A DNA stretch of 64,000 bases from Bacteroidota bacterium (GCA_021299855.1 JAJTEY010000031.1:272-64271); one strand, 5' to 3'. Positions 22,503 to 30,174 are shown, counted from the first letter of the stretch. The notes: generated by a model from the letters alone, not told the origin. Numbers and translations are program-made.

Positions 22503-23279
22503 GTGGAATTATTTTTCAGAAAATCGGGAGAAGGACGACCGTTGGTCATATTGCACGGATTATTCGGTATTTCGGATAATTGGGCGGCTTTAGCAAAATT
22601 ATGGTCTACACATTTCACCGTGTACACACTTGACTTGAGAAATCACGGACAGTCGCCGCATTCGGACGAATGGAATTACCGCGTGATGGCCGATGATGTG
22701 GTTGAGTTTCTCGGGACAGAGCGGTTGAATGATGTCATCTTGCTGGGACATTCCATGGGTGGAAAAACAGCGATGCGTCTGGCACTTGACTATCCGATGG
22801 CCTTATCAAAACTTATTGTTTCCGATATAGCACCCAAACGTTACGATTTGCAGCAACATCAAGTAATTGAAGCAATCAAAGCGGTGGACGTGCACCAATT
22901 GGAATCGCGTAAAGATGCTGAAGCTATTTTGCAACAGCATTTGCACGATAACGGAACAATACAATTTTTATTGAAGAATTTATTTTGGCGCGATCACCGC
23001 GATGGTAGTAAAATTCTAGACTGGAGATTTAATGCCCGTGTAATTGCAGAACAGATCGAAAACATCTCCGAGGCAACTGTTTCCGATGATCCCTGCGAAG
23101 TAGATACGCTTTTTATTCGCGGCGGCAAATCACATTACATTACCGCTGAAGATGAACCGTTGATTCAACAACAATTTCCGAATTCCTCAATTATTACGAT
23201 TCCCGACGCAGGACATTGGGTACATGCCGATCAACCACAACTCATGTTTAATTCCGTATTAGAATTTTCACAACGTTAA
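22503..23279 (+). CDS. Alpha/beta-fold hydrolase (esterase YbfF-like)
   Basis: ILHGLFG, nucleophile elbow GHSMGG, and C-terminal DAGHWVHAD. Confidence 0.8.
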   Translation: MELFFRKSGEGRPLVILHGLFGISDNWAALAKLWSTHFTVYTLDLRNHGQSPHSDEWNYRVMADDVVEFLGTERLNDVILLGHSMGGKTAMRLALDYPMALSKLIVSDIAPKRYDLQQHQVIEAIKAVDVHQLESRKDAEAILQQHLHDNGTIQFLLKNLFWRDHRDGSKILDWRFNARVIAEQIENISEATVSDDPCEVDTLFIRGGKSHYITAEDEPLIQQQFPNSSIITIPDAGHWVHADQPQLMFNSVLEFSQR

Positions 23280-23296
23280 ATATCTATATCACACTT

Positions 23297-23737
23297 ATGA
23301 CAACAGCAGAAATTATTACCAACAAAGGCACCATGAAGGTGGAACTTTTTGATCAGGACGCGCCGAAGACGGTAGCCAACTTCGTAAAACTTGCGAATGA
23401 AGGTTTTTATAAAGGACTGAAGTGGCATCGTGTTCTTCCCGGATTTGTAATTCAGGGCGGCTGTCCTAACACGCGCGAAGGTGCTTCAGGAATTCCGGGT
23501 ACCGGTGGACCCGGATACGCCATTGAATGCGAACTCACCGGAAACAATCAGTTTCACGATAAAGGCGTTTTATCCATGGCGCATCGCGGACTCAATACAG
23601 GAGGTTCTCAGTTCTTCGTTTGCCTCAGTCGCATACCATACATCCTTATAGCAAACGGGCTGGTCATAAAAATCCGGCCCGTTTATTTTTTTCGCGTTAA
23701 ACTTGTATATGGACATTCAGCCCACAGAACGGAATAA
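23297..23737 (+). pseudogene. Cyclophilin-type peptidyl-prolyl isomerase, 3'-truncated
   Basis: Residues 1-112 are cyclophilin-like (FHRV-type WHRVLPGFVIQGGCP, GGPGY, VLSMAHRGLNTGGSQFFVC). After about nt 23633 the reading frame (IPYILIANGLVIKIRPVYFF...) loses similarity and runs through a terminator hairpin. Confidence 0.6.
23653..23692 (+). terminator. Rho-independent terminator lying inside the cyclophilin ORF tail
   Basis: aaacgggc (23653-23660) pairs with gcccgttt (23677-23684), followed by attttttt. Confidence 0.75.
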
Positions 23738-24650
23738 GTTTATTCTAAGCGGCACAACCGGCAGAAACGATTGGTGGCGCTATGTGCTGATTGTGCTGAT
23801 GTCCTTGGTCGGTTATGTCATCGGTTCCATTCCACTTCTGATTTTTCAGATGCGCGCCATAACATCGGGACAAGTTGCCATCAACGATCCGGAACTAACA
23901 GCTAAGCTGCTTAATCCTGAAATTATGGGATTGTCGCCACACGCCATGCTGGCGTTGACACTGTTCATCTTTGTAGTGGCTATGATCGGCTTGTTGGTTG
24001 GAGTAAAATTTATTGCGGGCAAAACAATCTCATCTATTATTACCGGCTACGGCAAAGTAAGATGGAAGCGTGTCGCAGCAGGTGCAGGCTGGTGGGCGCT
24101 TTTGTCGGCCATTTCAACCGCGATAGTAATTGGCGCAGATCCTCAGAACTACGAATGGACGTTTAATGCAGCGCCATTTTTCGCGACGCTGGCTATCGGG
24201 ATTTTATTACTGCCAATACAAACGTGGTGGGAAGAATTTTTATTTCGTGGCTATCTCCTGCAGGGAATAGCGAATAGTTTTCAAAAACCGTGGGCAGGAT
24301 TACTAGGCACCAGTTTGTTGTTTGCCGCCATGCACATGATGAATCCTGAAGTTGAGAAATACGGTATTCTTGCCACATTTCCACAGTACTTAATTCCGGC
24401 TTTAATGCTTGGATTTATAACGCTGATGGATGAAGGACTTGAGTTAGCCATGGGCATGCATTTCGCCAATAATCTTTTTGGCACTATTGTCGTAACCAGC
24501 AGCAACAGTGCAATACAGGCCAGCACCTTGTGGCGAGCCCACCAAACCGACTCCGGAATTGACTCCATTATTTTAATTAGTCAAAGTATATTATTTATAA
24601 TAATTCTTTGGTGGAAATTCAAATGGCAAATTCAAAAACTCAACTATTAA
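23709..24650 (+). CDS. CPBP-family intramembrane glutamic endopeptidase (CAAX protease / Abi-like)
   Basis: Multi-TM protein with WWEEFLFRGYL, FAAMHM and HFANN motifs. Confidence 0.85.
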   Translation: MDIQPTERNKFILSGTTGRNDWWRYVLIVLMSLVGYVIGSIPLLIFQMRAITSGQVAINDPELTAKLLNPEIMGLSPHAMLALTLFIFVVAMIGLLVGVKFIAGKTISSIITGYGKVRWKRVAAGAGWWALLSAISTAIVIGADPQNYEWTFNAAPFFATLAIGILLLPIQTWWEEFLFRGYLLQGIANSFQKPWAGLLGTSLLFAAMHMMNPEVEKYGILATFPQYLIPALMLGFITLMDEGLELAMGMHFANNLFGTIVVTSSNSAIQASTLWRAHQTDSGIDSIILISQSILFIIILWWKFKWQIQKLNY

Positions 24651-24652
24651 GC

Positions 24653-26503
24653 ATGTATAAATTCGTCCTTTCTATTTCGTTGATTTGTTCATCCCTGTTT
24701 GTTCAGGCTCAACAATCCGAAAACGCTTATAAATTTTCGGTGGATCTGACCAAAGTTTTTAAAGATCAACTTACCGTAGAATTAACACCGCCACAAATCA
24801 ACACCGATACCGTACTGTATCGGTTCCCGGCTATGGTTCCGGGCACGTATAAGGTTTATAATTTCGGACGATTCATCACCGACTTCGTAGCGCTGGATGC
24901 TGCGGGCAATGAATTAAGTTACGTTAAGCCCGATCGCAACTCCTTCCAAATTGCGGATGCAAAAAAGATCAAGAAGATTCGCTATAAAGTAGAAGACACC
25001 TGGGATACTGATAAGCGCGCTGATTTTGTATTTGAGCCTGCAGGAACAAATATTCAGAAAGACACCAACTATGTATTAAACAATCATGGTTTCTTCGGAT
25101 ACTTCGAAGGAATGACCAAAGTACAATACGAGGTGATGGTCAAACATCCTGAAGGTATGTACGGTTCAACCGGCTTAAATAATGTAAAGCGAGAAGGAAA
25201 CGAAGACACCTATTATGTCAATAACTATCATGATTTGGTGGACGGCCCGATAATGTACTGTAAGCCCGACACTACGTGGTTAAACGTCGGCGGAACGAAA
25301 GTTCTTATTTCTGTGTATTCGCCGAAAAAGCTGGTGAGTTCAAAATTCGTAGCGGACAGTTTACACGACATTCTTGAATATCAACGTTTGTACTTAGGCG
25401 GAACACTACCCGTAAACAATTATGCTTTTATTATCTACCTCACCGGAAACGAAGACGGATTTAAGTCAGGTTCTTATGGCGCGTTGGAACATTCCTATTC
25501 ATCTATGTACACCTTGCTGGAAATGGAACCCGCCGAAATTGCTCAAACCGTGAAGGATGTTGCTGCCCATGAGTTTTTTCACATTGTAACACCATTAAAT
25601 ATTCACTCGTATGAAATTGGCGACTTCGATTTTAATAAACCCAAAATGTCCATGCACCTATGGATGTATGAAGGATTAACCGAATATGCCGCGCATCATG
25701 TCCAGGTGAAGTATGGTAAAATGTCCTTGAATGCGTTCATCGATGTATTGAGTGAAAAAATGAACATCGCAGATCGCTACAATGATACATTGCCATTTAC
25801 ACGCATGAGTTTATTGTGTTTGGATGAACATGAGAAAGAATACGGCAATGTTTATCAGAAAGGTGCATTGATCGGAATGTGTCTGGATATTCAATTGCGC
25901 CACTTGTCGAAAGGTCAGTACGGCACACAAGAACTTATGGCTGATCTATCCAAGAAATACGGAAAGGACCGCAGCTTTAATGATGACTCGTTGATTACAG
26001 AAATTGTGCGATTAACGTATCCCGAGATTGGTGAATTTTTCAAAAAATATGTGATGGGCAATGAGCCTATTCCGTATGGAAAATATTTGGAAATGGTAGG
26101 ATTGAATTATGAAGCTTCGCGTACAGAAATGGTTTTAGATCCACTCGGCGGATACTTCTTTATTCAGGATAATCAGGGGAACGTGCGAATTTATGGCCCT
26201 GAACCGAACAGCTTCGGTAACGATATCGGATACAAGAATTTTGATGTGATCAAATCCATCAACGGGAAAAAGGTAACGCCTCAAAATATGGAACAAGTGC
26301 TTGGAGAATTAAAACAAATGAAAGAAGGCACAAAACTGAAAATTAAAATTATTCGGGGCGGAATCTTTGGAATACCGAAACAAAAAATGACGTTAAAAGG
26401 CACCTTGCGTAAATCAGAAAAGGTAACACGACACATTATCACCATTGACAAAGGAGCAAGCGAGACACAGCTATTGTTACGTAAGTTCTGGATTAACAAA
26501 TAA
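24653..26503 (+). CDS. M61-family (glycyl aminopeptidase-like) zinc metallopeptidase with a C-terminal PDZ domain
   Basis: Signal peptide MYKFVLSISLICSSLFVQAQ. HExxH as AAHEFFH with downstream YEGLTEY. C-terminal PDZ-like DVIKSINGKKV. Confidence 0.8.
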   Translation: MYKFVLSISLICSSLFVQAQQSENAYKFSVDLTKVFKDQLTVELTPPQINTDTVLYRFPAMVPGTYKVYNFGRFITDFVALDAAGNELSYVKPDRNSFQIADAKKIKKIRYKVEDTWDTDKRADFVFEPAGTNIQKDTNYVLNNHGFFGYFEGMTKVQYEVMVKHPEGMYGSTGLNNVKREGNEDTYYVNNYHDLVDGPIMYCKPDTTWLNVGGTKVLISVYSPKKLVSSKFVADSLHDILEYQRLYLGGTLPVNNYAFIIYLTGNEDGFKSGSYGALEHSYSSMYTLLEMEPAEIAQTVKDVAAHEFFHIVTPLNIHSYEIGDFDFNKPKMSMHLWMYEGLTEYAAHHVQVKYGKMSLNAFIDVLSEKMNIADRYNDTLPFTRMSLLCLDEHEKEYGNVYQKGALIGMCLDIQLRHLSKGQYGTQELMADLSKKYGKDRSFNDDSLITEIVRLTYPEIGEFFKKYVMGNEPIPYGKYLEMVGLNYEASRTEMVLDPLGGYFFIQDNQGNVRIYGPEPNSFGNDIGYKNFDVIKSINGKKVTPQNMEQVLGELKQMKEGTKLKIKIIRGGIFGIPKQKMTLKGTLRKSEKVTRHIITIDKGASETQLLLRKFWINK

Positions 26504-26504
26504 G

Positions 26505-27560
26505 ATGAACCGAGCACCACTGCAACGATCTCAGATTTATTGGCTGCTTCAAATTGCAGGGTGGTTATCGTTTACCCTTTTAAATCTGGCATTTGTTTAC
26601 TTGAATAATCAGGTAACACCGGAGTTACTGTTCGGATTGTTGATGGTATTTGTTGTCGGAATTGGTTTAACTCAGATCATTCGGGGAATCATCATTCGAT
26701 TTCATTGGGTGAAACTTGGTGTTGCGGCAATGTTACCGCGCATTATGTTGTTGTGCATTTTGTGTGGTGTCGGAATGGCAAGCATAGACAGAATTGTAGA
26801 TTATCTTTTATCGCCTGATGTATCGCTGGTTGAACAGCCGATTCGATTTGCGCTGAACGTGCTCAATTTCTCCTTTGTCTTTTTATTTTGGTCTGCGATA
26901 TATTATTTGTTTCATTTTATCGTCAATTTCAGAAAAGCTGAAATAGAAAATTTAAAATGGGAAGCTGCAATTTCAGAAGCGGAATTGAATAGGCTAAAAT
27001 CGCAGCTAAATCCGCATTTCCTTTTTAATGCAATGAATGCGATACGCGCATTGGTAGATGAGAACCCGGTAAAAGCGAAAGAAGCGATTACCCAGTACTC
27101 CAATATTCTACGCAGCACCTTGCAGATGGGAAAAAGTAAATTAATACCGTTGCATCAGGAAATGGCGTTGGTGAAGGATTATTTGGCGTTGGAGGGAATT
27201 CGTCTGGAAGAGCGATTACGCTTGAACATACAAGTTGACGATAACGCAACCAATGCGCAGCTTCCTCCTATGATGTTGCAAACATTGGTAGAAAACGGCA
27301 TTAAGCATGGTATTTCAAAACTTCCGAAAGGAGGCGAGCTGTCCATTCACGCTACATTGAACAATCACATTTTACAAATCAAGATTGCCAATAGCGGTCA
27401 TTACGACGAAACAGCAATTTCGGAAAGCGGATTCGGAATTGCGAATACTCTGGAGCGGCTGAAATTACTGTACGGAAATCAAGCTAGCTTCAGGATAGAA
27501 AACTCCGAACCGAATTTGGTAATTAGTCAACTTTTCATTCCCCAAAATACCGGCTTATGA
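26505..27560 (+). CDS. LytS/YehU-type sensor histidine kinase with a membrane-embedded input
   Basis: About four TM helices with negligible loops, then LKSQLNPHFLFNAMNAI (His_kinase PF06580-type H-box) and an HATPase region LVENGIKHG...GFGIAN. Confidence 0.85.
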   Translation: MNRAPLQRSQIYWLLQIAGWLSFTLLNLAFVYLNNQVTPELLFGLLMVFVVGIGLTQIIRGIIIRFHWVKLGVAAMLPRIMLLCILCGVGMASIDRIVDYLLSPDVSLVEQPIRFALNVLNFSFVFLFWSAIYYLFHFIVNFRKAEIENLKWEAAISEAELNRLKSQLNPHFLFNAMNAIRALVDENPVKAKEAITQYSNILRSTLQMGKSKLIPLHQEMALVKDYLALEGIRLEERLRLNIQVDDNATNAQLPPMMLQTLVENGIKHGISKLPKGGELSIHATLNNHILQIKIANSGHYDETAISESGFGIANTLERLKLLYGNQASFRIENSEPNLVISQLFIPQNTGL

Positions 27561-28279
27561 AAGTAATTATTGTTGATGATGAACGTCTGGCACGACAGGA
27601 GCTGAAATCTATGCTCAGCACATTTCCGAATATGGAAATTATCAGCGAATGCAGCGATGCGGAAAGCGCAATAGAAGTTATTGATCAGTTGAAACCGGAT
27701 GTGGTGTTTCTCGACATTCAGATGCCGGGAAAAACAGGATTTGATGTATTAGAAGAACTCACTGCTGTTCCGCATGTGGTATTTGTAACTGCACACGACG
27801 AATTTGCAATAAAAGCATTTGAAGTAAATGCACTGGACTATTTACTAAAACCTGTGCAACCCGCGCGATTAGCGAACGCCATTAAAAAGCTTAACGAGAA
27901 TATTCAGCAAGACAATGGAACCCGCACGCAAGGCGAACATGTATTGAGTGAAAACGATCAGGTTTTCGTGAAAGACGGAGAGAAATGTTGGTTTGTGAAA
28001 CTGTCGGATGTGCGATTATTTGAATCAGAAGGAAATTACGTGCGGATTTATTTTAATCAAAACAAACCGCTCATACTTCGTTCACTGAATTATTTGGATG
28101 AACGTTTGGATCAAAAGATTTTCTTTCGTGCCAGCAGGAAACATTTGATCAATTTAAGTTGGGTTGATTCCATTGAACTATGGTTTAACGGAGGACTCAT
28201 GGTGAAGTTGAAAGGTGGTGAACAAGTGGAGATTTCCAGAAGACAAGCCGTTAAACTTAAGGAGATGATGAGTTTGTAG
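27557..28279 (+). CDS. LytTR-family response regulator
   Basis: Receiver domain (IIVDDE...VFLDIQMPG...LDYLLKP) plus a C-terminal LytTR domain (RLFESEGNYVRIYF...FFRASRKHLINL). The ATGA overlaps the kinase stop. Confidence 0.9.
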   Translation: MKVIIVDDERLARQELKSMLSTFPNMEIISECSDAESAIEVIDQLKPDVVFLDIQMPGKTGFDVLEELTAVPHVVFVTAHDEFAIKAFEVNALDYLLKPVQPARLANAIKKLNENIQQDNGTRTQGEHVLSENDQVFVKDGEKCWFVKLSDVRLFESEGNYVRIYFNQNKPLILRSLNYLDERLDQKIFFRASRKHLINLSWVDSIELWFNGGLMVKLKGGEQVEISRRQAVKLKEMMSL

Positions 28280-28374
28280 ACTGAGATAGGTCTACACGCG
28301 AATTCATTATTGAGTCGCAATGTATGATTAGGCACAATTTTTGGTTTCTTTAGGTGTAATAATAATACCTCCCA

Positions 28375-29304
28375 ATGAAAAAAATCTATACGCTACTACT
28401 TTTTATTGCCACGTTCTTACAAGTTTCCGCACAAACGAAAACATCCGTAAATAATGGCGATTGGTACGATCCCGCTACGTGGAACCCTACCGGAGTTCCG
28501 GATTTGCAAACGCAGCAAATCATCATTAATTCTCACGTCACCTTTGTTCAGAGTATTTTAATCGGTGGTAATTGCGACGAATTTCGCATCGAATCGAGTG
28601 CTACATTAACTGATTTGAACGTCGACGACACGCTGATTATCGGTTCACGGATTTTCAGAAACAACGGTGCTGCAACCATCGGATTTTTAAGCGGAGAACC
28701 TTCCGATTCTACCATCAATAATGGCTCTCTTAAAATCACCACAGATTATGTACAAAGTGGCACTTGCGTGAATACAGACAGCGGCGCAATTTGCGTTACC
28801 AATCAGTTAACGACCGGCGATGATTTTATTAATAACGGGGATGTTGCTGCCTACAACTGGATAAATGGTGCTGCAGTAACCGGTAATCAAGGACAATTTT
28901 GTGTTGCTAATTGGTTTATCAATGGAGATCAGATTAACGGAACCGTTGACGTTTGTGACGCAACTCCGGGCTCTCAATTTGATGTTGTGGGAATGGTAGG
29001 CAATCAAGTTACGTTTTGCGCACAAGGTCCGTGCAATACGTGTGCGACGACTTCCATAAACGAACATGAAGCAATAGCTCTGACCATTTATCCTAATCCT
29101 GTTACTATCGGTGGGCCGCTATACGTTGTAACAACTATTGAATCAACGGTGAACATTTTTGATGCACAGGGCAAATTGTGCTTAATGTATGTGCAACAAA
29201 CCGGAACCCAAAGCGTGAATACATCTGCATTAACTACCGGCATCTATTATTTGTCCGTAAAATCAGGAACAGCGGTAAGCACAAGAAAAATTGTGATTTA
29301 CTAA
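28375..29304 (+). CDS. Secreted protein of unknown function with a T9SS type A CTD
   Basis: Signal peptide. C-terminus LTIYPNPVTIGGPLYVV...GIYYLSVKSGTAVSTRKIVIY. Confidence 0.75.
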   Translation: MKKIYTLLLFIATFLQVSAQTKTSVNNGDWYDPATWNPTGVPDLQTQQIIINSHVTFVQSILIGGNCDEFRIESSATLTDLNVDDTLIIGSRIFRNNGAATIGFLSGEPSDSTINNGSLKITTDYVQSGTCVNTDSGAICVTNQLTTGDDFINNGDVAAYNWINGAAVTGNQGQFCVANWFINGDQINGTVDVCDATPGSQFDVVGMVGNQVTFCAQGPCNTCATTSINEHEAIALTIYPNPVTIGGPLYVVTTIESTVNIFDAQGKLCLMYVQQTGTQSVNTSALTTGIYYLSVKSGTAVSTRKIVIY

Positions 29305-29348
29305 ACTCGAGTTTATAAATAATAGCAGGCAGCTGTAAGTAAACGTAT

Positions 29349-29507
29349 TTACGATACGTGGGTTACAGTTGTCTGTTCTTCCATCGACCAGGTCAGGTCA
29401 TCCGTTTCGGCATGTTCTACCGGAGCATTGAATTGAATCGGCATAAAATTAAGCAACACGCACAATAACGCGAAAATCAAAAGCAGGATAAGCGACATAG
29501 CGTCCAT
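29349..29507 (-). CDS. Possible 52-aa single-TM micro-protein (below the ORF-track cutoff)
   Basis: Hand translation gives MDAMSLILLLIFALLCVLLNFMPIQFNAPVEHAETDDLTWSMEEQTTVTHVS. One hydrophobic helix and an acidic tail. No homology evidence. Confidence 0.3.
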   Translation of the reverse strand: MDAMSLILLLIFALLCVLLNFMPIQFNAPVEHAETDDLTWSMEEQTTVTHVS

Positions 29508-29580
29508 TATATTGGTTACGCTAAATTCTATGATTGGTATTAAGCCAACGTAACCGTAACATCAAACTTTCCTGATGTTT

Positions 29581-30174
29581 TCAGAAATGATGTGGTCCGG
29601 GAAAATTGCTTTTGATAAAGCGCATGAGTTCGGGAAAATAATCCAGAAACTCCCTTGAGAACAAATCATAGTGTTGCTCCAACAGCATATGAGATGTTTC
29701 CATTTTCGATTCATACCGGGCGCGTCGTGCCATTCCGCCCATCACCCGCTCTATCCCCTTAACCGTGCGATAACTCATCAACCAATCGCCGCTTTTCATG
29801 TGCTTCAAAATGAATGCAGAACGTTCCGGCATAATAGCGTGATGTCGATTGAGGGTAACGTACGATTGCTGGGCAAAGTCAGTTAATCTTTCGGAGCTAA
29901 ATTGATTCCAATGCACCGCCAAAAAATGATCGTAGAAAATATCAATAATCACGGGGGCGTAATGTCTGTACTCCGCCCTTAATCGTTGTGTACTCTGAAG
30001 CACCAAAGGATGATGATCAGTAAAGTGATCGATGGCTCTGTGCATTCGAATTCCTGCAGCAACTTCAGGATCATACTTCGAAAAATCCGCGCCTTTCACC
30101 GCATCAGCAATGAAATTGCCCACCAGCCAAGGCTCCGATTTACCGGACAAATAAAAATGCGCCAGATAGTTCAC
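29581..30174 (-). CDS. acpH: Acyl carrier protein phosphodiesterase
   Basis: GTG start. The N-terminus MNYLAHFYLS...VGNFIADAVKG is characteristic of AcpH. 197 aa. Confidence 0.8.
   Translation of the reverse strand: MNYLAHFYLSGKSEPWLVGNFIADAVKGADFSKYDPEVAAGIRMHRAIDHFTDHHPLVLQSTQRLRAEYRHYAPVIIDIFYDHFLAVHWNQFSSERLTDFAQQSYVTLNRHHAIMPERSAFILKHMKSGDWLMSYRTVKGIERVMGGMARRARYESKMETSHMLLEQHYDLFSREFLDYFPELMRFIKSNFPGPHHF

What the first reader, a model, noticed from the sequence alone, without database searches (positions are those of the whole stretch)
23698..28279. Four-gene block with gaps of 2 nt or less: CPBP protease, M61/PDZ peptidase, LytS-type kinase and LytTR regulator
**Seen in sequence.**
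- A terminator at 23653-23692 precedes the block.
- A near-consensus -7 box (TAAACTTG, 23698-23705) follows the terminator.
- Four genes then follow with gaps of 2 nt, 1 nt and a 4-nt overlap, which implies one transcript and translational coupling.
- The kinase input is about four TM helices with almost no loops, so sensing would be intramembrane.

**Why it is of interest.** CPBP/Abi proteases and LytTR regulators are best known, separately, from bacteriocin immunity and peptide-signalling circuits in Firmicutes. I do not know of a described Bacteroidota system that fuses an intramembrane glutamic protease, a periplasmic PDZ metallopeptidase and an intramembrane-sensing LytS/LytTR pair into one operon.

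**Hypothesis.** This could be a proteolysis-coupled envelope or peptide-sensing module. The T9SS cargo gene 95 nt downstream (28375-29304) would be one possible target.
Basis: partly seen in the sequence, partly recalled or inferred. Interest (0 to 1): 0.6.

Follow-up and report, generated by a model that had tools for sequence, protein, structure and literature searches.

The report
Peptidase operon with BtsR-like two-component system
Four tightly packed genes for a membrane protease, a periplasmic zinc peptidase and a sensor-regulator pair form a real gene cluster that is conserved across several Bacteroidota families, probably switches itself on, and has never been studied.

Summary
CPBP protease (23709-24650), M61 peptidase with a PDZ-like tail (24653-26503), a 4-TM PF06580 kinase (26505-27560) and a REC-LytTR regulator (27557-28279) lie 2 nt, 1 nt and -4 nt apart. 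They follow an 11-bp terminator and a -7-like box.

The linkage is conserved but modular, with M61 as the hub. M61-kinase-regulator adjacency occurs in 28 of 53 sampled Bacteroidia genomes that hold both orthologues, in 7 families. CPBP sits directly upstream of M61 in 2 families. All four genes occur together in the window's family and in a few MAGs.

A direct repeat with half-sites 20 nt apart (CCGYT-N15-CCAYTnGTGTAA) lies upstream of the first gene wherever the kinase-regulator pair is attached. It resembles the E. coli BtsR operator, so I read the block as a self-activated operon with the peptidases as co-regulated outputs. In the window's own species the repeat is degenerate.

- The T9SS cargo gene is lineage-specific. 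It replaces a PAP2_C gene that follows the regulator in relatives.
- The truncated cyclophilin upstream is a 140-nt assembly gap.
- The trigger and the physiological role remain inferred.

This is a moderately interesting, new variant of a known kind.

The parts
23633..23634 (.). Assembly gap. 140 nt are missing here: the last ~40 codons of the cyclophilin gene, its stop codon, and the upstream half-site of the predicted operator.
   Evidence: Alignment with G004 and G005. Contigs of DNA runs X2, X3 and X4 are otherwise identical and carry 140 extra letters. X1 has a loose end that holds the missing sequence.
23635..23645 (+). Remaining downstream half-site (ACCATACATCC) of the predicted regulator-binding direct repeat. 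It is degenerate in this species group.
   Evidence: The homologous site in G004 is TAACCACTCC..N..TTACCATACATCC. It lies 47 nt before the -7-like box, the same spacing as the strong site in L024. The PWM score is only 3.2 bits.
23653..23692 (+). Intrinsic terminator of the upstream cyclophilin gene. It lies between the predicted operator and the -7-like box.
   Evidence: 11-bp stem, -18.6 kcal/mol, z = -4.1, U-run. A hairpin plus T-run is seen at this place in the genus sequences inspected.
23698..23705 (+). -7-like promoter box TAAACTTG, one mismatch to the Bacteroidota consensus TAnnTTTG. It ends 3 nt before the ATG, so the mRNA would be leaderless or nearly so.
   Evidence: Sequence. A TAnnnTTG box lies 3-16 nt before the ATG in the 14 genus members and the window inspected. 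Function is inferred.
23709..24650 (+). CPBP (Rce1-like) intramembrane glutamic protease, 313 aa, with catalytic motifs intact.
   Evidence: PF02517, 7e-15. EExxxR, FxxxH and HxxxN are present in 31 of 31 orthologues.
24653..26503 (+). Secreted M61 zinc peptidase with a C-terminal PDZ-like domain, 616 aa. It is the hub gene of the cluster.
   Evidence: PF17899 plus PF05299. HEFFH and EGLTEY are invariant. AF2 model pLDDT 90; Foldseek hits 4FGM, 8J9C and the CtpB PDZ region. A lake metatranscriptome contig is 100% identical over 25153-25404.
26505..27560 (+). Sensor histidine kinase, 351 aa. It has a 4-TM input with no large loop, a PF06580 dimerisation/His module, and an ATPase domain whose G1 box reads NSG instead of DxG.
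   Evidence: PF06580, 3e-23. PDB 6SWJ, 5e-17. N(S/T)G in all 40 orthologues.
27557..28279 (+). Response regulator, REC plus LytTR, BtsR-like. Its start overlaps the kinase stop (ATGA).
   Evidence: PF00072 plus PF04397. Best NCBIfam hit is BtsR, 193 bits, below the cut-off of 246. Single-copy orthologue in 134 of 401 Bacteroidia genomes.
28375..29304 (+). T9SS cargo gene (type A C-terminal sorting domain). It is a lineage-specific neighbour and not a conserved part of the cluster.
   Evidence: PF18962 / TIGR04183. Present only in G004 and G005. A PAP2_C gene sits at this place in other species.

Best explanation
The block is one operon under positive autoregulation by its own BtsR-like LytTR regulator.

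**Proposed sequence of events**
1. A cue sensed within the membrane acts on the 4-TM kinase.
2. The kinase phosphorylates the regulator.
3. The regulator binds a direct repeat upstream of the first gene. Its half-sites lie 20 nt apart: CCGYT...CCAYTnGTGTAA in relatives, and ACCACTCC...ACCATACA in this species.
4. It activates a Bacteroidota -7-type promoter.
5. That raises the periplasmic M61-PDZ peptidase, the CPBP intramembrane protease, and the kinase and regulator themselves.

The peptidases are therefore outputs that act on peptides or proteins of the cell envelope. In most relatives a PAP2_C lipid phosphotransferase is a further output. The most likely role is a response to envelope or membrane-active-peptide stress.

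**What is shown**
- Gene order.
- Conservation of the linkage.
- The operator-like repeat and its specificity for clusters that carry the kinase-regulator pair.
- Intact catalytic motifs in both peptidases.

**What is inferred**
- Binding of this regulator to the repeat.
- Activation rather than repression.
- Co-transcription of all four genes.
- The signal and the physiological role.
For: **Layout**
- The genes are 2 nt, 1 nt and -4 nt apart.
- Terminator-like sites inside the block do not exceed chance.
- No perfect TAnnTTTG lies within 23600-29400, against 19 on the + strand of the 64-kb window.

**Conservation**
- The block is syntenic across the genus.
- In a sample of 401 Bacteroidia genomes, M61 and the regulator orthologue sit on one strand 1.04-1.3 kb apart, with the kinase between them. 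This holds in 28 of the 53 genomes that have both, in 7 families (confirmed in 16 fetched loci).
- CPBP lies directly upstream of M61 in the window's family and in 11 genomes of family f44, with a 12th case split by contig ends.
- On the M61 tree the linked states fall in at least 6 separate clades.

**Operator**
- All 23 PWM hits of 15.8 bits or more, among 3.3 million positions, lie 70-173 nt upstream of a cluster's first gene on the right strand. The one exception lies upstream of a small-ORF-kinase-regulator operon in Emticicia.
- About 58 M61-alone loci and 11 CPBP-M61-only loci score 4.3 bits or less, once four loci auto-labelled M61-alone are reclassified (L093-L095 are M61-kinase loci; the L043 contig is too short to judge).
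- A PWM trained on one family alone puts the top hit of the whole locus at that place in 10 of 19 loci from other families.
- A perfect TAnnTTTG box follows 25-29 nt downstream in three families.
- Within the window's family, 8 of 16 upstream regions hold the CCnYT-N15-CCnYT skeleton, against 1.3% of random segments.

**Resemblance to a known operator**
- The E. coli BtsR (YehT) site in the yjiY promoter oligo reads ACCGCTTA-N13-ACCACTCA (PMC4847170).
- LytTR sites in general are two 9-11-nt repeats separated by 11-13 nt (same paper).
- BtsR is this regulator's best NCBIfam match.

**Expression**
- One lake metatranscriptome contig is identical to part of the M61 gene.
- One metatranscriptome contig from a relative spans the kinase/regulator junction.
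Against: - No experiment exists on any member of the cluster.
- In the window's own species group the repeat is degenerate (3.2 bits; the downstream half-site reads CCATA). It fails the strict pattern.
- The PWM was seeded by eye, so part of its specificity is circular. Cross-validation works well outside the family but in only 2 of 17 loci inside it.
- The -7-like box ends 3 nt before the ATG. This requires a leaderless transcript, which is unverified.
- Many genomes keep the kinase-regulator pair and M61 unlinked. There the M61 or CPBP-M61 upstream regions lack the repeat, so regulation of M61 by this regulator is not universal.
- The kinase's G1 box has Asn where GHKL ATPases have Asp. This raises doubt about ordinary kinase activity.
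- RNA evidence for a single transcript across all four genes is lacking.
Confidence: 0.5

Rival explanations
1. Proteolysis-coupled sensing. The M61-PDZ peptidase and/or the CPBP protease act upstream of the kinase. They would generate, trim or destroy a peptide cue, or the CPBP protein would bind the kinase in the membrane and set its activity. The peptidases would then be part of the sensor, not only outputs.
For: - The kinase has no sizeable extracytoplasmic domain. Such kinases often rely on accessory membrane proteins.
- CPBP/Abi proteins control histidine kinases or the maturation of LytTR-circuit signals in Firmicutes: Abx1-CovS (PMC3578759), SpdC-WalK (PMC5854430), MroQ-Agr (bioRxiv 10.1101/516906), SilX (PMC9298176), CflP-CovS (PMC13692083), all.
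- PDZ domains read C-terminal peptides in DegS-type sensors (established knowledge).
- M61 stays next to the kinase in 7 families.
Against: - CPBP is absent from most M61-kinase-regulator clusters, in 5 of the 7 families. It therefore cannot be a required partner of this kinase.
- Many genomes keep the kinase-regulator pair without M61 nearby, or without an M61 orthologue at all. Nine f32 genomes are examples.
- The CPBP here keeps all its catalytic motifs. By contrast, CflP is described as non-catalytic in its paper's abstract, and SpdC is recalled as non-catalytic from memory (untested here).
- Nothing tested here speaks to protein-protein contact.
Confidence: 0.2
2. Nutrient scavenging control. 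Like BtsS/BtsR of E. coli, the pair reports nutrient status. It would induce a periplasmic aminopeptidase (M61) so that the cell can feed on peptides. Envelope stress would play no part.
For: - The regulator's best named match is BtsR, and the predicted operator resembles the BtsR site.
- M61 is an aminopeptidase family (Pfam name; PDB names).
- The organism comes from lake water. Peptides as a major food for Bacteroidota there is general knowledge.
- In two f21 genomes a second strong site (23-26 bits) precedes a secreted S8 peptidase gene.
Against: - The kinase lacks the LytS 5-TM and GAF sensor of BtsS.
- A CPBP intramembrane protease and a PAP2_C lipid enzyme are odd members of a feeding regulon.
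- No transporter gene sits in the cluster.
- The second site is seen only in two close relatives, and pattern counts in whole genomes equal the control.
Confidence: 0.2
3. No functional link. The two peptidase genes and the two-component pair are neighbours by descent or by chance and work independently.
For: - The linkage is absent in about half of the genomes that hold both M61 and the regulator.
- Most M61 orthologues stand alone.
Against: - The same order, strand and spacing recur in 7 families and in at least 6 clades of the M61 tree.
- The window's genome (an incomplete MAG, 72% complete) holds only 2 PF06580 kinases.
- The operator-like repeat sits upstream of M61 or CPBP, not upstream of the kinase gene.
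Confidence: 0.05
4. An abortive-infection or other anti-phage defence locus built around the 'Abi' (CPBP) protein.
For: PF02517 proteins were historically called Abi. That is the only support.
Against: - No PADLOC model matches CPBP, M61 or the kinase. Only weak receiver-domain hits appear for the regulator.
- The locus is stably syntenic among housekeeping genes (pdxJ, cyclophilin, acpH, tolC) across a genus, unlike defence islands.
Confidence: 0.02

Closest known systems
[quoted passage not shown]
   Same: - REC plus LytTR regulator, and the best NCBIfam match.
- PF06580 kinase core.
- The predicted operator (CCGYT..N..ACCAYTC, half-sites 20 nt apart) is close to the BtsR site ACCGCTTA-N13-ACCACTCA.
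   Different: - The kinase has a plain 4-TM input and lacks the 5TM-LytS and GAF domains.
- Its G1 box is N(S/T)G.
- The regulator scores below the BtsR equivalog cut-off (193 against 246 bits).
- The target here is the system's own operon with peptidase genes, not a CstA-family pyruvate transporter.
CPBP/Abi membrane proteins that control histidine kinases or LytTR circuits in Firmicutes (Abx1-CovS, SpdC-WalK, CflP-CovS, MroQ-Agr, SilX-Sil)
   Same: A CPBP-family membrane protein is genetically tied to a two-component system whose kinase senses in the membrane. MroQ and SilX are tied to LytTR-type circuits.
   Different: - The phylum differs.
- The CPBP here is catalytically intact and is optional: it is absent from most clusters that carry the kinase-regulator pair.
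- Its constant partner is the M61 peptidase, not the kinase.
- No interaction data exist.
M61 peptidases with solved structures (4FGM Idiomarina, 8J9C Xanthomonas, 7XYO Myxococcus); glycyl aminopeptidase family
   Same: - Same fold over the full length (TM 0.71 to 4FGM).
- HExxH plus a downstream Glu.
- N-terminal beta domain and C-terminal PDZ-like domain.
   Different: - Only 16-18% identity.
- None of these is known to me as part of a two-component operon.
- The substrate of the Bacteroidota clade is unknown.
DegS/RseP sigma-E cascade (a PDZ protease plus an intramembrane protease in envelope-stress signalling)
   Same: A periplasmic PDZ-bearing protease is paired with an intramembrane protease in an envelope context.
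   Different: - The protease families differ (S1 and M50 against M61 and CPBP).
- The output there is release of a sigma factor by cleavage of an anti-sigma factor. Here a phosphorelay is present and no anti-sigma factor is seen.
- The analogy is untested.

Membership tests
CPBP / Rce1-like intramembrane glutamic proteases (PF02517) | Profile match above Pfam's gathering score | tested here: met
   55.5 bits against a cut-off of 22.4.
CPBP / Rce1-like intramembrane glutamic proteases (PF02517) | Catalytic motifs EExxxR, FxxxH and HxxxN/D | tested here: met
   EEFLFR, FAAMH and HFANN in the window. All three are present in 31 of 31 orthologues.
CPBP / Rce1-like intramembrane glutamic proteases (PF02517) | Proteolytic activity and substrate | not testable with these tools
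   No assay is possible. NCBIfam gives only sub-threshold matches to myxosortases.
Peptidase family M61 | M61 N-terminal and catalytic domain profiles | tested here: met
   PF17899 at 133.8 bits and PF05299 at 48 bits, both above their cut-offs.
Peptidase family M61 | Zinc site: HExxH plus a downstream Glu | tested here: met
   H306, E307, H310, E340 and E344 are invariant in 34 orthologues.
Peptidase family M61 | Overall fold, including the C-terminal PDZ domain | tested here: met
   AF2 model pLDDT 90. Foldseek gives 4FGM at E=4e-38, TM 0.71 over 627 columns, and CtpB PDZ-region hits at E=1e-4. The PDZ_2 sequence match alone is below threshold (E=0.022).
LytS-family sensor kinases | 5TM-5TMR_LYT sensor domain (PF07694) and GAF domain | tested here: not met
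   No such Pfam hit even at E up to 10. There are four TM helices only.
LytS-family sensor kinases | PF06580 His_kinase module with the phospho-accepting His | tested here: met
   82 bits. xNPHFxFN is present in all 40 orthologues.
LytS-family sensor kinases | Canonical GHKL ATP-binding boxes (N box, G1 DxGxG, G2) | tested here: inconclusive
   The N box (ENGIKHG) and G2 box (GFGIAN) are present. The G1 box reads N(S/T)G, with Asn for the usual Asp, in all 40 orthologues, whereas PDB 6SWJ and the paralogue in this genome have DNG. Pfam HATPase_c is not detected.
LytTR response regulators / BtsR | REC domain plus LytTR DNA-binding domain | tested here: met
   PF00072 at 87.7 bits and PF04397 at 80.9 bits.
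LytTR response regulators / BtsR | BtsR equivalog score | tested here: not met
   193 bits against a cut-off of 246. The regulator is BtsR-like but not BtsR.
LytTR response regulators / BtsR | Operator made of two 9-11-nt repeats separated by 11-13 nt | tested here: inconclusive
   A conserved repeat of that geometry lies upstream of the clusters and resembles the BtsR site. Binding is untested, and the site is degenerate in the window's species.
T9SS cargo (type A C-terminal domain) | C-terminal sorting domain | tested here: met
   PF18962 at 42 bits and TIGR04183 at 48.7 bits, at residues 238-308.

The most novel reading that the evidence does not exclude
The M61-PDZ peptidase (with CPBP where present) is the actual sensor arm of the system. 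It would cleave or trim an envelope peptide or protein, and the product or the substrate load would be read inside the membrane by a 4-TM kinase that has an unusual Asn-type ATP lid. This would be a regulated-proteolysis-to-phosphorelay pathway not yet described in Bacteroidota. Because the kinase-regulator orthogroup is single-copy in about a third of Bacteroidia genomes, such a pathway would be widespread.
Probability: 0.15. Interest if true: 0.75.

Novelty: new variant of a known kind. Interest (0 to 1): 0.45.

Why it matters
Two-component signalling in Bacteroidota is poorly charted, and PF06580/LytTR pairs have no known function there.

This work provides four things:
- It defines one widespread, single-copy kinase-regulator orthogroup, found in 72 of 202 sampled genera.
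- It predicts that orthogroup's operator.
- It names the first likely targets: an M61-PDZ peptidase, plus a CPBP protease and a PAP2_C lipid enzyme in some lineages.
- It turns an anonymous gene pair into a testable envelope or peptide response.

It also links M61 peptidases and CPBP proteases as partners, although neither has a known role in this phylum.

Tried and rejected
- **Wider regulon.** The IUPAC pattern in 16 genomes gave counts equal to the reversed-pattern control. The extra sites were chance or lineage-limited: an S8 peptidase in G328 and G422, and an RND adaptor in G178. A PWM scan of the window's own genome gave nothing above background.\n- **Operator elsewhere.** The repeat is absent upstream of CPBP-M61 in genomes where the kinase-regulator pair is unlinked. 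It is also absent upstream of the SurA-kinase-regulator arrangement of family f44.\n- **RNA evidence for one transcript.** Only short metatranscriptome contigs were found. The two 'RNA?' runs hold contigs of 67-81 kb and are probably DNA, so their junction-spanning contigs were not used.\n- **Rfam.** No RNA family matches 23200-29700.\n- **PADLOC.** No defence model matches.\n- **Literature.** I found no paper on this cluster, on M61 in Bacteroidota signalling, or on the Xanthomonas M61 structure.\n- **F. johnsoniae lead.** A kinase/LytTR pair of F. johnsoniae was mutated in parallel during co-evolution with an antibiotic producer (PMC10197871). I could not test its orthology, so I did not use it as evidence.\n- **Cyclophilin 'deletion scar'.** Rejected as biology; it is an assembly gap.\n- **Sigma-70 promoter scan.** Not informative for this phylum.


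Full report
**1. What is in the window**

The six-frame ORF list and the sequence give four co-oriented genes:
- CPBP, 23709-24650. The ATG is at 23709; an in-frame TTG lies at 23703.
- M61, 24653-26503, starting with a signal peptide.
- Kinase, 26505-27560.
- Regulator, 27557-28279.

Pfam confirms the families: PF02517; PF17899 plus PF05299; PF06580; PF00072 plus PF04397. The gene 95 nt downstream has a T9SS type A sorting domain.

The PDZ call is weak by sequence (PF13180, E=0.022; sub-threshold hits to PDZ-bearing GspC and Prc). An AlphaFold2 model built on 34 orthologues has pLDDT 90. It superposes over its full length on the M61 structures 4FGM (TM 0.71) and 8J9C, and its tail hits the PDZ region of CtpB.

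The CPBP protein keeps EExxxR, FxxxH and HxxxN, as do all 31 orthologues. M61 keeps HExxH and the downstream Glu.

The kinase has four hydrophobic helices in its first ~140 residues and no loop longer than about 25 residues. It has no LytS 5-TM or GAF domain.

**2. The upstream signals**

The hairpin at 23653-23692 has an 11-bp stem (-18.6 kcal/mol, z = -4.1) followed by a U-run. The consensus scan missed it because its loop has 10 bases.

TAAACTTG at 23698-23705 is one mismatch from the Bacteroidota -7 consensus TAnnTTTG; the consensus itself is from my own knowledge. In the 14 other genus members whose upstream regions were inspected, a TAnnnTTG box follows the hairpin's T-run and ends 3-16 nt before the ATG, mostly 5-6 nt.

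It implies a leaderless or nearly leaderless mRNA, which is an inference. No perfect TAnnTTTG lies inside 23600-29400, against 19 on the + strand of the whole window. Terminator-like sites inside the block are at the chance level.

**3. A correction to the window**

Compared with the two nearest genomes (G004 and G005, 94-99% protein identity), the window lacks 140 nt at 23633/23634. The missing piece holds the last ~40 codons of the cyclophilin gene, its stop codon and 20 further bases.

Contigs of three independent lake or freshwater DNA runs match the window without a single other difference and carry those 140 letters. In a fourth run, the best holder, the contig breaks there with a loose end that holds the missing sequence. 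No run shows the short form.

The 'truncated cyclophilin' is thus most likely an assembly gap. The gap also removes the upstream half of the operator described in section 6.

**4. Conservation**

The window lies in a 72%-complete MAG from lake water. In every genus member with a long enough contig, the order is pdxJ - hydrolase - cyclophilin - CPBP - M61 - kinase - regulator - (variable) - acpH - tolC.

Eighty loci around M61 orthologues (41-51% identity) from named and unnamed Bacteroidota show a mosaic:
- M61 alone: Pontibacter, Adhaeribacter, Emticicia, Saprospira and many others.
- CPBP-M61 only: 10 loci.
- M61-kinase-regulator only.
- All four genes.

On an M61 tree, the state with the kinase-regulator pair attached occupies at least 6 separate clades, and the CPBP-attached state occupies 2.

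I searched an even sample of 401 Bacteroidia genomes with three of the proteins:

| Protein | Criterion | Genomes | Genera (of 202) |
|---|---|---|---|
| Regulator orthologue | E<=1e-75, 51-77% identity, almost always one copy | 134 | 72 |
| M61 orthologue | E<=1e-90 | 98 | 47 |
| CPBP homologue | E<=1e-25 | 53 | 22 |

By my tally of the coordinates, 53 genomes hold both M61 and the regulator. In 28 of these, M61 and the regulator lie on one strand 1.04-1.3 kb apart. Sixteen such loci were fetched, and all have the kinase in between. They belong to 7 families.

CPBP lies directly upstream of M61 in the window's family (2 of 3 genera) and in 11 genomes of family f44; a 12th f44 genome has the pair split by contig ends. 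In f44 the kinase-regulator pair usually sits elsewhere, between a SurA-like gene and a PorP/SprF-like gene (the names of those two neighbours are my reading of their N-terminal sequences, not a profile search). CPBP homologues in families f12, f28 and f66 are not next to M61.

However, the unit is modular, with M61 as the hub. The window's (incomplete) genome has only two PF06580 kinases, which makes chance adjacency very unlikely.

**5. The fifth gene and the T9SS cargo gene**

In nearly all other genus members, in G287 and in family f21, a ~210-aa membrane protein starts 3-100 nt after the regulator gene. It is a PAP2_C protein (PF14360, 6e-9).

That gene is absent from G000 and from the near-complete G004 and G005 genomes. 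In these three genomes the T9SS cargo gene occupies the slot. The cargo gene is therefore a recent replacement, not a conserved partner. The spacer before it holds no copy of the predicted operator (on G004).

**6. A predicted operator**

Reading the upstream regions by eye showed a direct repeat. A 38-nt matrix built from 15 instances has the consensus ttCCGYT-N15-(A/G)CCAYTnGTGTAA, with the two CC cores 20 nt apart.

*Specificity.* I scanned all fetched loci on both strands, 3.3 million positions.
- All 23 hits of 15.8 bits or more lie 70-173 nt upstream of the first gene of a cluster that carries the kinase (and, where the contig shows it, the regulator), and all are in the gene's orientation.
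- The single exception lies upstream of a small-ORF-kinase-regulator operon in Emticicia, where M61 is unlinked.
- The best hit anywhere else scores 14.8 bits.
- About 58 M61-alone loci and 11 CPBP-M61-only loci score 4.3 bits or less in their upstream regions. Four loci auto-labelled M61-alone are excluded: L093-L095 are really M61-kinase loci, and the L043 contig is too short to tell.

*Cross-validation.* The seeds make part of this circular, so I retrained on the 5 sequences of family f21 alone. In 10 of 19 loci from other families, the top hit of the whole 4-16-kb locus is again the site upstream of the first gene. The chance expectation is about 1-3% per locus.

*Promoter context.* In f21, in f32 and in Vicingaceae, a perfect TAnnTTTG box follows 25-29 nt after the repeat. 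This puts the repeat where an activator would sit.

*Resemblance to known sites.* The geometry matches what is known of LytTR sites: two 9-11-nt repeats separated by 11-13 nt (PMC4847170). The half-sites resemble the E. coli BtsR site as printed in that paper's yjiY oligo, ACCGCTTA-N13-ACCACTCA. BtsR is this regulator's best named match.

*Weakness in the window's family.* Inside the family the repeat is weaker.
- 8 of 16 upstream regions keep the CCnYT-N15-CCnYT skeleton, against 1.3% of random segments.
- Only 2 of 17 loci pass the cross-validation.
- In G004 the candidate is TAACCACTCC...TTACCATACATCC, at 3.2 bits. It lies 47 nt before the -7-like box, the same spacing as the strong site of L024.
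- The window retains only the second half-site (23635-23645), because of the assembly gap.

**7. Reading**

The repeat travels with the kinase-regulator pair and sits upstream of M61 or CPBP, not upstream of the kinase gene. The simplest reading is one operon, positively autoregulated by its regulator, with the peptidases (and PAP2_C in relatives) as co-regulated outputs.

The physiological role is inferred. The components are an intramembrane-sensing kinase, a periplasmic peptidase with a peptide-binding PDZ domain, an intact intramembrane protease, and a lipid head-group enzyme. Together they suggest a response to envelope damage or to membrane-active peptides.

Two rivals remain open:
- The peptidases may form the sensing arm. 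Precedents are Abx1, SpdC, CflP, MroQ and SilX in Firmicutes.
- The system may be a BtsSR-like feeding response.

Against a required CPBP-kinase partnership, CPBP is missing from clusters in 5 of the 7 families. A phage-defence reading finds no support.

**8. Other points**

- All 40 kinase orthologues have N(S/T)G where GHKL ATPases have DxG. PDB 6SWJ and the paralogue in this genome have DNG. Pfam does not detect HATPase_c. Whether this kinase binds ATP normally is open.
- RNA evidence is thin. A lake metatranscriptome contig is identical to M61 over 25153-25404, and a soil metatranscriptome contig from a relative spans the kinase/regulator junction.
- No paper in the library describes the cluster.

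**9. Verdict**

The locus is a conserved, uncharacterised, modular peptidase/two-component cluster with a predicted BtsR-like operator. It is a new variant of a known kind and of moderate interest.

Noticed in passing
window 23633/23634 (cyclophilin ORF 23297-23737): The cyclophilin gene looks truncated and reads through a terminator. In fact 140 nt are missing from the assembly. Three otherwise identical DNA contigs from other runs carry those 140 letters, and a fourth run has a contig break with the missing sequence as a loose end.
   Followed up: yes
L024, L027, L036, L132, L137 and others, directly after the regulator gene; absent at window 28280-29304: A ~210-aa PAP2_C (PF14360) membrane protein is the fifth gene of the cluster in most genus members and in family f21. 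The window's species group (G000, G004, G005) has lost it and has a T9SS cargo gene in its place.
   Followed up: yes
window 27380-27400 (kinase residues ~293-299, KIANSGH): The kinase G1 box is N(S/T)G instead of DxG in all 40 orthologues across families. The canonical Asp is replaced by Asn, which in other GHKL ATPases contacts the adenine base (from memory).
   Followed up: partly
L042, L045, L134-L138 (family f21), between the predicted promoter and the M61 start: In f21 the conserved hairpin GGGAATGG..CCATTCCC plus a T-run lies downstream of the predicted -7 box. It therefore sits inside a ~90-100-nt leader of the M61 operon, like an attenuator. In the window's genus the hairpin lies upstream of the -7 box instead.
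   Followed up: no
L148:4168-4205 (G328) and L149:4166-4203 (G422): A second strong copy of the repeat (26.0 and 22.8 bits) lies ~65 nt upstream of a secreted S8 (subtilisin-like) peptidase gene in two related f21 genomes. G178 has a 15.7-bit copy upstream of an RND adaptor gene (L153).
   Followed up: partly
L122, L123, L126 (family f44): Where the kinase-regulator pair is not next to M61, it sits in a conserved block between a SurA-like prolyl isomerase gene and a PorP/SprF-like gene. Both names are by-eye readings, not tested. No copy of the repeat is present there.
   Followed up: no
literature: PMC10197871: In Flavobacterium johnsoniae co-evolved with Burkholderia thailandensis, a LytTR regulator (FJOH_RS09515) or its neighbouring histidine kinase (FJOH_RS09520) was mutated in all five lines. 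Orthology to the window's pair could not be tested.
   Followed up: no
window 28280-28374: The spacer before the T9SS cargo gene holds a 6-bp hairpin at the regulator's stop codon with no T-run. It also holds a TTTG followed ~17 nt later by TAATAATA, a possible weak promoter of the cargo gene's own.
   Followed up: no
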